From NCBI RefSeq assembly GCF_003790525.1, contig NZ_CP033635.1: a stretch of DNA of 64,000 nucleotides. The stretch is one strand, 5' to 3'. Position 1 is the first letter of the stretch. Each line of letters starts with the position of its first letter. The position numbers are program-made. The DNA comes from Escherichia coli (lineage in GTDB: Bacteria; Pseudomonadota; Gammaproteobacteria; Enterobacterales; Enterobacteriaceae). Positions 42,701 through 45,700 of the stretch are shown here, one piece after another.

Positions 42701-45700
42701 GATCAAACCTTAAAAGTTGCCAAGCTGGCCTCAACGAAATATTACGACAATTTGCCCACCAGCGGAAACGAGCAAGGACAAGCATTCCGTGATATTGAGC
42801 TGGAAAAAGTATTGCTCGAGGCCAGTCAGCAATTTGGTATTGGTGCGCAATTTGGGGGTAAATATTTCGCTCATGATATTCGCGTCATTCGTCTGCCGCG
42901 TCACGGTGGCTCTTGCCCGATAGCTATGGCGCTCTCCTGTTCTGCGGATCGCAATATCAAAGCAAAAATTAACAAGCACGGTATCTGGCTGGAAAAACTC
43001 GAACACAATCCGGGGCAATATATTCCAGCCTCACTGCGGGAAGAAAATCACGCGCAACATGTACAGCTGGATCTAAACCGTCCGTTGCGTGACGTGATGC
43101 AGGATCTCGCCAGATTACCGGTAGGCACCCGCGTGTCGTTAAGTGGTCCCATCGTAGTGGCGCGCGATATCGCCCACGCCAAAATAAAAGCGCGGCTGGA
43201 TAGCGGCGAACCGATGCCGGATTACCTGAAGCATCATATTGTCTATTACGCTGGCCCGGCGAAAACACCGGAGAACATGGCCTGCGGTTCACTGGGTCCA
43301 ACCACGGGCGGTCGAATGGACGGTTATGTCGATACCTTCCAGGCGGCTGGCGGCAGTCTGGTGATGTTATCGAAAGGTAACCGCAGCCAGCAGGTCACCG
43401 ATGCCTGTCACAAACATGGCGGCTTCAATCTGGGGAGTATTGGCGGTGCAGCTGCGTTACTGGCGCAAGAATATGTCAAAAGTCTGCGTTGCCTGGAATA
43501 CCCGGAGCTGGGTATGGAAGCGGTGTGGATGATGGAAGTGGAAAATTTACCCGCATTCATCCTGGTAGATGATAAAGGCAATAATTTCTTTAGTCAGTTT
43601 GAGCAGCAACACCGCTGCGCCAGTTGCCCTGCGGGACATTAAGGAAAATGAATGGAAGCGCGAATTTCAACTGAACGGCATGTGCAGCGCCAGCAGAAAT
43701 TGAAGGAACAGGTCGATACGCGCGTCGCGGCGGCGATAGAGAAAAAAGGGATTTTGATTGTTTTCACCGGCAATGGCAAAGGGAAATCCACTGCCGCGTT
43801 TGGTACTGTGACGCGCGCGGTGGGTCATGGCAAAACGGTGGGGGTTGCGCAGTACATCAAGGGGCAATGGGACAACGGCGAATACAACCTTCTCCAGCCG
43901 CTGGGGGTTGAGTTTCATATTATGGGAACCGGTTTTACCTGGGAGACACAGAACCGGCAAGCGGATATCGACGCGGCGAAAGAGGTCTGGTCGGAAAGCA
44001 AACGGATGCTGGCTGACAAGCGTTACGACTTAGTGGTGCTTGATGAGCTGACCTATATGCTGGCTTACCATTATCTGGATACCGAAGAAGTGATCGCTTC
44101 TCTGCAAAACCGCCCGGCACAACAAAGTGTCATTGTCACCGGACGCGGTTGCCACAGTCAGATATTAAAAATGGCGGATACGGTCAGCGAAATCCGCCCC
44201 GTCAAACATGCTTTTGATAACGGCATTCAGGCCCAGCCGGGTATCGACTGGTAATAACTGCGCCTGGCATCCCGCCAGGCGCAGGTTTTACATCTCCTGC
44301 GGTACGACCGATTTCGCCAGCAACCATTCACGAAATTGCTGCAAGTGCGGTGAGTCAGACTTCTCTTCCTGCCACGTCATAATAAAACGATTACCGGTAC
44401 GAATAGGCACATCACAGGGAATCACCATATCGCCACTATCCAAATCATGTTGAATAGCGAACCGTGGTAACAGCGCCACGCCGAGATTAGAGCGCACGGC
44501 GGCAATCAGCATTGAAAGCAAATCGAAACGTGGTCCGTTATTGACCAGCGGACTGCTAACGCCAGATAAAGCAAACCACTCTTCCCAGCCAGTAATACGG
44601 GTGCTTTGATGCAGAAGTGGTAACTCAGTAAGCAGTTCTGCCACTGACAGTTTTTGATCGGACATTGCAAGCAAACTGCCGCTGCATACCGGCAAAATCT
44701 CCTCATCAAAGAGATATTCTACTTCCGCCCAGGGCGCGCAAAAATTTTCGCGCATAATGACAGCATCGTACTCCCGATTAAGAAAATCGCCGTTATTAGC
44801 TAAAGAATGAATATTAACAATAATATCGGGATGTAACTTTGTGAATTCATGTAAATTTGGGATTAACCAGTGGGTACTAAACGTAGGATTCACGGCAAGT
44901 TCAATAACCTGAACCGTAGGCTGCCAGGTCATAATGGTATTGGTATCGCGTTCCAGCTTATTTAATGTTTCTTTTACTATCCCCAGGTAATACTTCCCTG
45001 CATCATTAAGAAAAATGCGTTTTTTAGAGTGTGAAAATAACGGAGTATGTAAAAATTCCTCCAGCGCACTTACTTGTCTGAATACTGCACTTTGGGTTAA
45101 CGCTAACTCCTCTGCCGCTCTGGTATAACTTTCATGACGTGCGACGACCTCAAAAGTCACCAGCAGTTCCGTTTTAGGTATTTTTCCTCGCATAATGCCT
45201 TCCCTTAAAAATAGTTGAAACTATCAAAAAACCATTACTTATTGCTAAGTAATGGCAACCAAAGCAGCAATCAATATTTTATAAAAATCATGTTCGATAT
45301 TTATAACCTGGTAAGCCTGGCGTGACAATTGTCTTAATCAGATAATAATAATCCGAAAAGCACAGCACCTTTCGAATTATCAGGAATTACATTAAGTGAA
45401 AATTATTAAATTGATATCATTTATCATATCTGTGGATATTATGATAAACAATCAACATAGATTTTATTTTTGATTTATAGCATATCCCTCTAAGAATTTT
45501 TGCGATGCTTCAATATCCGGGGTAAAGACCCGATCCTGACTGACAAATGGCACGACTTGACGATAAGCGGTGAACATCGCTTTTGTTGATTTACTTAACG
45601 CTACGGTCAAACGCTGGGAAGCCAGTGCATCAGGTAACGATTCGAAATTCGCCGTCGTTCTTATTCGTGGCTTGCGGTCGGTCGCGGCAATCCACAGTGG

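What the first reader, a model, noticed from the sequence alone, without database searches (positions are those of the whole stretch)
43652..44254. Cluster-encoded BtuR/CobA paralogue: dedicated adenosylcobalamin supply for glutamate mutase
E. coli already has btuR elsewhere on the chromosome. A second ATP:cob(I)alamin adenosyltransferase (P-loop VFTGNGKGKSTAAFG, very similar to BtuR) sits at the 3' end of the island, next to the B12-dependent glutamate mutase genes and the MutL-like reactivase. This suggests a self-contained cofactor activation and repair set, with only corrinoid import required from the host.
Basis: partly seen in the sequence, partly recalled or inferred. Interest (0 to 1): 0.4.

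Follow-up and report, generated by a model that had tools for sequence, protein, structure and literature searches.

The report
Second B12 adenosyltransferase in glutamate-mutase island
This is an intact second copy of the enzyme that turns vitamin B12 into its active coenzyme form, carried as the last gene of an accessory E. coli operon for B12-dependent glutamate breakdown; it is real and conserved, but it is already annotated, already drawn in a 2015 paper, and of an ordinary kind.

Summary
Window 43652-44254 (+) is an intact 200-aa CobA/BtuR-type ATP:corrinoid adenosyltransferase (TIGR00708 equivalog above cut-off). It aligns without gaps to Salmonella CobA (PDB 1G5R), and the P-loop, Phe91/Trp93 equivalents and 75 invariant positions are kept. 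It is a true second copy. About 21% of complete E. coli genomes carry it, always with the glmS-glmL-glmE-mal-...-fumD island, and virtually all carriers keep btuR (67% aa identity). Orthologues (80-88%) in eight other genera all lie 9 nt behind fumD, whose stop codon overlaps the ribosome-binding site. A strong terminator hairpin follows. dN/dS is about 0.02-0.04. It is not a recent btuR duplicate: it forms a deep, separate enterobacterial lineage (0/100 bootstraps with the Enterobacteriaceae housekeeping clade). The "dedicated AdoCbl supply" reading is plausible by analogy with PduO and EutT, but it is untested. "Self-contained" overstates it: no cobalamin reductase was recognised in the island. 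In Morganella the gltP-fumD-cobA module sits by the cob operon with no glm genes nearby. Kronen & Berg (2015, Fig 5) already label this gene CobA in this cluster, and RefSeq calls it cobO. Verdict: already known, low interest.

The parts
43652..44254 (+). cobA2 (RefSeq 'cobO'): 200-aa CobA/BtuR-type ATP:corrinoid adenosyltransferase, second copy
   Evidence: ORF. TIGR00708 246.6 bits against a cut-off of 167.75. PF02572 E 6e-64. 1G5R E 2.5e-88, full length. 67% identical to K-12 BtuR. RefSeq WP_000388207.1.
43769..43792 (+). P-loop GNGKGKST (residues 40-47, equivalent to Salmonella CobA G36-T43)
   Evidence: Read from the sequence. G36-K41 and T43 are invariant in 87 CobA sequences. Position 42 is Ser in all island copies and Thr in most housekeeping copies.
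43934..43942 (+). Phe95-Thr-Trp97, equivalent to Salmonella CobA Phe91/Trp93 (residues that displace the lower ligand)
   Evidence: The alignment to 1G5R/4HUT shows GTGFTWETQNR. F91 and W93 are invariant in all 87 sequences. Their role is recalled from Moore et al. 2012 and was not re-read here.
43640..43651 (+). fumD stop codon TAA overlapping the Shine-Dalgarno sequence (TAAGGAA), plus the 9-nt spacer before the cobA2 ATG
   Evidence: Sequence. The same TAAGGAG-N5-ATG junction is present in 14 orthologous loci from other genera. The fumD-to-cobA spacing is identical.
44258..44284 (+). Terminator-like hairpin (11-bp stem, 9 G-C pairs, then GTTTT) 4 nt after the cobA2 stop codon, between the convergent cobA2 and lysR genes
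   Evidence: Best-scoring terminator-like site in 33600-45900.
41990..43642 (+). fumD, class I fumarase/mesaconase, directly upstream of cobA2
   Evidence: NCBIfam PRK15392 1284.7 bits. Biochemically characterised as a mesaconase/fumarase in E. coli O157:H7 (PMC4682846).
40602..41882 (+). gltP-like dicarboxylate/amino acid:cation symporter
   Evidence: RefSeq annotation. Pfam SDF in the orthologous loci.
38757..40441 (+). AtuA-family (DUF1446) gene and overlapping DUF4387 gene, function unknown, conserved in the island
   Evidence: RefSeq and Pfam labels. No NCBIfam hit. 91-92% identical in other genera.
37512..38753 (+). mal, methylaspartate ammonia-lyase
   Evidence: TIGR01502 543.9 bits.
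36067..37512 (+). glmE, glutamate (methylaspartate) mutase subunit E
   Evidence: TIGR01503 865.1 bits.
34660..36048 (+). glmL (MutL-like) accessory protein and putative reactivase
   Evidence: NF040745 accessory_GlmL 511.6 bits against a cut-off of 475; TIGR01319 886 bits.
34211..34660 (+). glmS, B12-binding subunit S of glutamate mutase, with an intact DxHxxG motif (D14-C-H16-A-V-G19)
   Evidence: NF002612 254 bits. Motif read from the translation.
44288..45193 (-). LysR-family regulator, convergent with cobA2 and conserved with the island
   Evidence: ORF. GcvA-like subfamily hit below its cut-off. 80-86% identical orthologues flank cobA2 in all island loci.

Best explanation
The gene encodes a catalytically competent CobA-type ATP:cob(I)alamin adenosyltransferase. 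It is transcribed and translated as the last cistron of the glmS-glmL-glmE-mal-atuA-DUF4387-gltP-fumD operon of an accessory 'mesaconate pathway' island. When the operon is induced, the extra adenosyltransferase raises the cell's capacity to convert imported or recycled cobalamin into adenosylcobalamin. The imported forms are hydroxo- and cyano-cobalamin; the recycled form is cob(II)alamin released from inactivated glutamate mutase, presumably through GlmL. The AdoCbl then loads the base-off/His-on site of GlmS. This plays the same role that PduO and EutT play for diol dehydratase and ethanolamine ammonia-lyase. Reduction of cobalt to Co(I) still depends on host electron donors. Shown here: family membership, conserved catalytic residues, strict co-inheritance with the island, conserved translational-coupling architecture, and purifying selection. 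Inferred: enzyme activity, co-transcription, and benefit to glutamate mutase. The gene did not arise by recent duplication of btuR. It belongs to a separate, deep enterobacterial CobA lineage that travels with the island.
For: Family and active site. 75 positions are invariant, including G36-K41, T43, R51, F91, W93, E128, R161 and D195 in Salmonella numbering. Second copy. Co-inheritance in E. coli: 1121 genomes with the gene against 1117 with the whole island. Across genera: every locus with a >=80%-identical copy has glmL-glmE-mal-atuA-gltP-fumD upstream. These loci come from Citrobacter, Salmonella, Enterobacter, Lelliottia, Buttiauxella, Klebsiella michiganensis and Raoultella, and the pattern holds even where the island sits at another chromosomal site, as in Enterobacter next to a fimbrial cluster. 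Other cargo genes (glutaminase, SumT, PocR-like) come and go while cobA2 stays. Operon architecture: 9-nt gap, Shine-Dalgarno sequence overlapping the fumD stop codon, conserved in 14 loci. No promoter-like site lies before the gene, and the strongest terminator-like hairpin lies right after it. Purifying selection: dN/dS is 0.015-0.04 with saturated dS. B12 dependence of the partner enzyme: GlmS has an intact DxHxxG motif and GlmL is present. Phylogeny: island clade 100/100 bootstraps, and 0/100 for grouping with the Enterobacteriaceae housekeeping clade.
Against: There are no expression or activity data. Kronen & Berg detected no methylaspartate ammonia-lyase activity in E. coli O157:H7 under any condition tried, including with added cobalamins. 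Virtually all carriers retain btuR, and by general knowledge also eutT, so the extra copy may be dispensable. Two intergenic gaps (about 160 nt before gltP and about 107 nt before fumD) could hold internal promoters, so cobA2 may be co-expressed with gltP-fumD rather than with glmSLE. In Morganella the gltP-fumD-cobA module is not adjacent to glm genes. Clostridial glutamate-fermentation clusters carry no adenosyltransferase according to the Fig 4 legend of PMC4682846, so glutamate mutase does not generally need a dedicated one.
Confidence: 0.65

Rival explanations
1. Redundant hitch-hiker. The adenosyltransferase is functional, but it is linked to fumD and gltP for historical reasons. The module may derive from a Morganella-like genome in which this cobA was the organism's general adenosyltransferase next to the cob operon. 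In that case it gives glutamate mutase no specific benefit beyond what btuR already provides.
For: Morganella morganii has gltP-fumD-cobA-(M48)-LysR directly beside cobT-cobC-cobS-cobU-cbiP-cbiO..., with no glm or mal genes within 20 kb upstream or 10 kb downstream. Virtually all E. coli carriers keep btuR. Clostridial glm clusters lack an adenosyltransferase.
Against: A useless gene should decay. Instead it is intact in every island locus seen across eight or more genera, with dN/dS of 0.015-0.04 and saturated synonymous sites. The coupling junction is conserved, while neighbouring cargo genes are gained and lost. The sister relation to the Morganella copy has only 16/100 bootstrap support.
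Confidence: 0.2
2. Specialised variant. The island copy differs functionally from BtuR. It might use another electron donor, prefer other corrinoids found in the gut, or hand AdoCbl directly to GlmS/GlmL in the way human MMAB hands it to methylmalonyl-CoA mutase.
For: Twelve positions are fixed differently between the island and housekeeping clades (T42S, V62A, P70D, R74Y, Q85H, V86I, A88G, T102I, H111E, L121Y, V133L, D136H). Arg165 is invariant in 68/68 housekeeping copies but is Ser/Ala/Thr/Lys in all 19 island copies. From memory (Buan & Escalante-Semerena, JBC 2005; not verified here) Arg165 contributes to flavodoxin docking.
Against: Several island-specific states (S42, G88, I102, Y121, L133, H85) are the commonest state among more distant outgroup CobA proteins, and position 165 is variable in those outgroups. 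The differences therefore look like retained ancestral states rather than new adaptation. Arg9, the other recalled docking residue, is conserved. All catalytic positions are invariant.
Confidence: 0.1
3. Recent in-genome duplication of the E. coli btuR gene that happened to land next to the island.
For: Same family and same length class, 67% protein identity.
Against: Nucleotide identity to btuR is only about 68%. Orthologues at 80-88% identity exist in other genera, always in the island. The island clade never groups with the Enterobacteriaceae housekeeping clade (0/100 bootstraps), while that clade itself has 89/100 support.
Confidence: 0.01

Closest known systems
Salmonella enterica CobA / E. 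coli BtuR (housekeeping CobA-type ATP:corrinoid adenosyltransferase; PDB 1G5R, 4HUT)
   Same: Same fold family (PF02572, TIGR00708). Gap-free full-length alignment and 67% identity. P-loop, the Phe91/Trp93 equivalents, Arg9, Arg51, Glu128, Arg161 and Asp195 are all conserved.
   Different: Four extra N-terminal residues. Twelve clade-specific substitutions, and Arg165 is lost. Different genomic context: last gene of the glm-mal-fumD operon rather than yciK-btuR. Accessory gene, present in about 21% of E. coli genomes. Separate deep lineage.
PduO (pdu operon) and EutT (eut operon): pathway-encoded adenosyltransferases of enteric bacteria
   Same: Same logic. An adenosyltransferase gene lies in the operon of an AdoCbl-dependent enzyme, together with that enzyme's reactivase (PduGH, EutA; here GlmL), in a genome that already has a housekeeping CobA. 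This comparison rests on established knowledge; PduS/PduO context is in PMC2982820, which was listed but not opened.
   Different: PduO and EutT belong to unrelated protein families, whereas this gene is a CobA-type enzyme. No microcompartment genes are annotated or matched in the island and no PduS-like cobalamin reductase was recognised. The dedicated role of this gene is untested.
The enterobacterial 'glutamate fermentation' cluster of Kronen & Berg 2015 (PLoS One 10:e0145098, Fig 5)
   Same: It is this very cluster: GlmS, MutL/GlmL, GlmE, Mal, DUF1446, GltP, FumD, CobA and LTTR, with GlsA and SumT in some genera.
   Different: The paper only labels the gene as CobA. It offers no analysis of its origin, conservation, coupling to fumD or function. 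Those points are added here.

Membership tests
CobA/CobO/BtuR-type ATP:corrinoid adenosyltransferase (PF02572; TIGR00708) | Full-length match to the family profile above the curated cut-off | tested here: met
   TIGR00708 equivalog 246.6 bits against 167.75. PRK05986 295.6 bits against 185. PF02572 model positions 1-172 of 172, E 6e-64.
CobA/CobO/BtuR-type ATP:corrinoid adenosyltransferase (PF02572; TIGR00708) | Modified P-loop GNGKGK[ST]T for MgATP binding | tested here: met
   GNGKGKST at residues 40-47. G36-K41 and T43 are invariant in 87 homologues, and S42 is also the commonest state in the outgroups.
CobA/CobO/BtuR-type ATP:corrinoid adenosyltransferase (PF02572; TIGR00708) | Phe91/Trp93 pair that generates four-coordinate cob(II)alamin, plus other active-site residues (R51, E128, R161, D195) | tested here: met
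   All are present and invariant across the alignment. The roles of these residues are taken from memory of the CobA structural literature.
CobA/CobO/BtuR-type ATP:corrinoid adenosyltransferase (PF02572; TIGR00708) | Close sequence relationship to a solved CobA structure over the whole length | tested here: met
   1G5R_A residues 2-196 align to query residues 6-200 with no gaps, E 2.5e-88.
CobA/CobO/BtuR-type ATP:corrinoid adenosyltransferase (PF02572; TIGR00708) | Adenosylation of cob(I)alamin / cob(I)inamide with ATP, releasing triphosphate | not testable with these tools
   Needs an enzyme assay or genetic complementation.
Pathway-dedicated adenosyltransferase (functional class exemplified by PduO and EutT) | Encoded in the same transcription unit as an AdoCbl-dependent enzyme and its reactivase | tested here: inconclusive
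   Same strand, 9 nt after fumD, no promoter-like site of its own, terminator directly after it, and glmS/glmL/glmE lie upstream. However, two intergenic gaps of 107-160 nt lie in between, and no transcript data exist.
Pathway-dedicated adenosyltransferase (functional class exemplified by PduO and EutT) | Co-inherited with the pathway genes across strains and species | tested here: met
   1121 against 1117 E. coli genomes. 18 of 18 non-E. coli loci with a >=80%-identical copy carry the glm-mal-fumD genes. Exception at greater distance: Morganella.
Pathway-dedicated adenosyltransferase (functional class exemplified by PduO and EutT) | The pathway enzyme's activity depends on, or is improved by, this copy in vivo | not testable with these tools
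   Needs deletion mutants in a strain that expresses the cluster.

The most novel reading that the evidence does not exclude
The island copy is not a simple back-up for BtuR. It may be a specialised adenosyltransferase, for example one that no longer docks flavodoxin through Arg165 and takes electrons from another donor, or one that passes AdoCbl directly to GlmS/GlmL. Its strict translational coupling to the oxygen-labile Fe-S mesaconase FumD might then reflect a functional link rather than mere co-expression.
Probability: 0.08. Interest if true: 0.5.

Novelty: already known. Interest (0 to 1): 0.2.

Why it matters
The gene adds a third example, after pdu and eut, of enteric bacteria packaging a B12-activating enzyme with a B12-dependent catabolic operon. 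This one uses a CobA-type enzyme rather than PduO or EutT. It gives a handle on an island whose physiological role is still unknown: it is carried by about a fifth of E. coli genomes, including O157:H7, O55:H7 and O145 strains, and the fate of its product citramalate and its inducing conditions have not been found. The existence, family and location of the gene are already public, so the practical value is limited to guiding experiments on that island.

Tried and rejected
(1) I looked for a cobalamin riboswitch or other RNA element controlling the island. Rfam at gathering thresholds found only tRNAs and the cpoB thermometer in the whole window.

(2) I looked for a promoter of cobA2's own. There is no + strand sigma-70-like site between fumD and cobA2, and promoter-like sites in the region are fewer than in shuffles.

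(3) I tested the 'recent duplicate of btuR' idea and rejected it by bootstrapped NJ with outgroups.

(4) I tested whether the island-specific residues indicate neofunctionalisation. Comparison with outgroups shows most are ancestral-like states, and position 165 is variable outside Enterobacterales.

(5) I tried to verify from the held literature that CobA Arg9/Arg165 dock flavodoxin. The JBC paper is not held and three searches found no supporting text. The claim therefore rests on memory only.

(6) I tried to find glm/mal genes near the Morganella fumD-cobA module by walking 20 kb upstream and 10 kb downstream. None were found. The rest of that genome could not be reached.

(7) I scanned the two E. 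coli-specific hypothetical ORFs at the cydA side of the island. They have no Pfam or NCBIfam family, so neither can be proposed as a cobalamin reductase.

(8) I searched for later functional work on the cluster or on a glutamate-mutase-linked btuR. Nothing was found beyond Kronen & Berg 2015.

(9) I did not predict the structure, because a 67%-identical crystal structure exists.
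Full report
**The object.** Window 43652-44254 (+) is an ATG-initiated ORF of 200 codons. Its product matches the NCBIfam equivalog TIGR00708 'cobA' at 246.6 bits (cut-off 167.75) and PRK05986 at 295.6 bits. It matches Pfam PF02572 CobA_CobO_BtuR over the entire model (E 6e-64), with a weak Co_AT_N hit at the N-terminus. Against the PDB it aligns residue for residue, without a gap, to Salmonella CobA (1G5R/1G5T/1G64, E 2.5e-88; 4HUT, E 1.4e-86).

**It is a second copy.** Megablast finds the gene at >=95% identity in 1121 of 5426 complete E. coli genomes, annotated 'cobO: cob(I)yrinic acid a,c-diamide adenosyltransferase'. 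A sensitive blastn finds a ~68%-identical gene in 5422 of 5426 genomes. The total of 6546 places in those 5422 genomes means that almost every carrier has both copies. The ubiquitous copy is the classical btuR in the yciK-btuR-rluB context. The two proteins are 67% identical and 83% similar over 196 residues with no gaps.

**Surroundings.** The window is E. coli chromosome. The island segment (window 32217-45193) is 100% identical to strain XDL, and the rest of the window follows that strain's annotation. The gene order is gal-...-tol-pal-cydAB, then the island, then sucDCBA-sdh-gltA.

The island reads as follows:
- two hypothetical ORFs;
- glmS (NF002612, 254 bits; DxHxxG motif intact);
- glmL (accessory_GlmL, 511.6 bits);
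- glmE (TIGR01503, 865 bits);
- mal (TIGR01502, 544 bits);
- an AtuA-family/DUF1446 gene and an overlapping DUF4387 gene;
- a gltP-like symporter;
- fumD (PRK15392, 1285 bits);
- cobA2;
- a convergent LysR regulator.

cobA2 starts 9 nt after fumD, and the fumD stop codon TAA is part of the Shine-Dalgarno sequence TAAGGAA. No + strand promoter-like site precedes it. The best terminator-like hairpin of the whole 12-kb region (11-bp stem, 9 G-C pairs) begins 4 nt after its stop codon. Rfam finds no cobalamin riboswitch anywhere in the window.

**Co-inheritance.** In E. coli the whole 13-kb island is present (>=80% covered) in 1117 genomes, against 1121 for cobA2 alone.

Outside E. coli, proteins 80-88% identical and also 200 aa long occur in Citrobacter, Enterobacter, Salmonella enterica, [Enterobacter] lignolyticus, Lelliottia, Buttiauxella, Klebsiella michiganensis and Raoultella. 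Every one of the 13 species-representative loci and 5 additional contigs that carry such a copy has glmL-glmE-mal-atuA-(DUF4387)-gltP-fumD directly upstream and the LysR gene downstream. This holds even where the island sits elsewhere in the chromosome, as in Enterobacter next to a fimbrial operon. It also holds where extra cargo is present (glutaminase, a SumT-type methylase, a PocR-like regulator).

The 66 loci at 65-71% identity lack glm genes and are taken to be housekeeping genes; one further locus in that range, Morganella, is treated separately below. The fumD-cobA junction (stop codon overlapping TAAGGAG, 9-nt spacer, ATG GAA GCG CGA) is conserved in 14 orthologous loci. Between E. coli and the other genera, dN is about 0.09-0.13 while dS is saturated, giving dN/dS of about 0.015-0.04. 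That indicates strong purifying selection.

**Active site.** In an alignment of 87 sequences (19 island copies, 68 housekeeping copies; the Morganella copy was kept apart), 75 positions are invariant. They include G36-K41, T43, R51, F91, W93, E128, R161 and D195 in Salmonella numbering. Twelve positions are fixed differently in the island clade. Arg165, invariant in the housekeeping copies, is Ser/Ala/Thr/Lys in the island copies.

I recall Arg9 and Arg165 as flavodoxin-docking residues (Buan & Escalante-Semerena 2005) but could not verify this in the held literature. Comparison with more distant CobA representatives shows that many 'island' states (S42, G88, I102, Y121, L133) are the commonest outgroup states, and that position 165 is variable outside Enterobacterales. 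The differences therefore do not argue for a new function.

**Origin.** A bootstrapped neighbour-joining tree with 11 outgroup representatives gives these results:

| Grouping | Bootstrap support |
|---|---|
| Island clade monophyletic | 100/100 |
| Enterobacteriaceae housekeeping clade monophyletic | 89/100 |
| All Enterobacterales copies against outgroups | 86/100 |
| Island clade with Enterobacteriaceae housekeeping clade | 0/100 |

The gene is thus an old, separate enterobacterial lineage that travels with the island, not a recent btuR duplicate. Its exact sister is unresolved: the Morganella copy, the apparent sister in the midpoint-rooted tree, has only 16/100 support.

Morganella morganii is instructive. 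There gltP-fumD-cobA (196 aa, 69% identical) is followed by an M48 peptidase and the LysR gene, and then directly by cobT-cobC-cobS-cobU-cbiP-cbiO-cbiQ-cbiN-cbiM. No glm or mal genes lie within 20 kb upstream or 10 kb downstream. This leaves open that the fumD-cobA linkage arose next to a B12-synthesis operon and is partly historical.

**Mechanistic reading.** The best-supported explanation is a pathway-linked adenosyltransferase. It would be co-expressed (probably translationally coupled to fumD) with a B12-dependent glutamate mutase and its GlmL accessory protein. Its role would be to convert imported or recycled cobalamin into AdoCbl when the operon is on. This parallels PduO and EutT, which accompany diol dehydratase and ethanolamine ammonia-lyase in genomes that also have CobA (established knowledge).

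- No cobalamin reductase is recognisable in the island: four island proteins have no NCBIfam family, two of them also have no Pfam family, and the gltP-like gene was not scanned.
- CobA enzymes depend on host flavodoxin or free reduced flavin (PMC4083273).
- btuR is retained in carriers.

Nothing is known about expression. Kronen & Berg found no condition in which E. coli O157:H7 ATCC 700728 made methylaspartate ammonia-lyase, with or without hydroxo-, cyano- or adenosylcobalamin, and the fate of citramalate is unknown.

**Comparison with the literature.** Kronen & Berg (PLoS One 2015, PMC4682846) described exactly this enterobacterial cluster. They reported it in 26.5% of E. coli and 90.6% of O157:H7 strains, characterised FumD, and in the legend of Fig 5 list 'CobA, cob(I)alamin adenosyltransferase' and the LTTR among its genes. 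Their Fig 4 legend for clostridial clusters lists no adenosyltransferase. Full-text searches found no paper that analyses or tests this copy.

The gene, its family and its location are therefore already known. What this analysis adds is the strict synteny, the conserved coupling junction, purifying selection, its status as a separate deep lineage, and the Morganella arrangement. Interest is low: a specialist would not be surprised, and no open question becomes newly testable beyond the obvious complementation and deletion experiments.

Noticed in passing
L069 / L090-L096 (Morganella morganii), e.g. L090 6573-20591: In Morganella a gltP-fumD-cobA module (cobA 196 aa, 69% identical) lies next to an M48 peptidase, the LysR gene and then the cobT-cobC-cobS-cobU-cbiP-cbiO-cbiQ-cbiN-cbiM operon. 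No glm or mal genes lie within 20 kb upstream or 10 kb downstream. It is unknown where Morganella keeps its glutamate mutase and MAL genes, or whether this is its only cobA.
   Followed up: partly
window 38757-40441: The AtuA-family (DUF1446) gene and the overlapping DUF4387 gene are conserved at 91-92% identity in every island locus, yet they have no NCBIfam family and no assigned function. They are candidates for the missing step after citramalate, or for a cofactor-related role.
   Followed up: partly
window 32217-33161 and 33242-33664: Two hypothetical ORFs (314 and 140 aa) lie between cydA and glmS. They have no Pfam or NCBIfam match and no homologue in the one other-genus locus that reaches upstream of glmS: Citrobacter koseri has a GntR-type gene there instead. 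The remaining loci end within glmL.
   Followed up: partly
cobA2 residue 169 (window 44156-44158), equivalent to Salmonella CobA Arg165: Arg165 is invariant in 68/68 housekeeping enterobacterial CobA proteins and in the Morganella copy, but it is Ser/Ala/Thr/Lys in all 19 island copies. It is variable in distant outgroups. Its recalled role in flavodoxin docking could not be verified here.
   Followed up: partly
L001 18813-28709 (E. coli IAI39) versus window 45193-45859: In IAI39 a histidine-utilisation cluster (HAL-type lyase, hutG, hutI, hutD, a permease, hutU) and an rtcB gene sit between the island's LysR gene and sucD. The window has only about 670 bp there. The cydA-sucD interval therefore appears to be a variable insertion site.
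   Followed up: no
window 18719-19660: zitB (a zinc CDF transporter) carries a single in-frame stop at codon 147 (about 19157-19159). RefSeq marks it as a pseudogene with an internal stop in the near-identical strain XDL.
   Followed up: partly
window 23227-23365 (- strand): Full-length Rfam hit to the CpoB/ybgF RNA thermometer (RF02782, 140 bits), downstream of the tRNA-Lys/Val cluster at about 21600-22300.
   Followed up: no
window about 57570-57960: RefSeq annotation of the matching strain shows an N-terminally truncated type 1 fimbrial protein pseudogene just downstream of gltA. The coordinates were transferred from strain XDL and not re-checked in the window.
   Followed up: no
(E. coli genomes): One of the 1122 cobA2 matches, and two of the island matches, lie on records classed as plasmids. 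They were not inspected and could be mis-assigned replicons or real mobilisation of the island.
   Followed up: no
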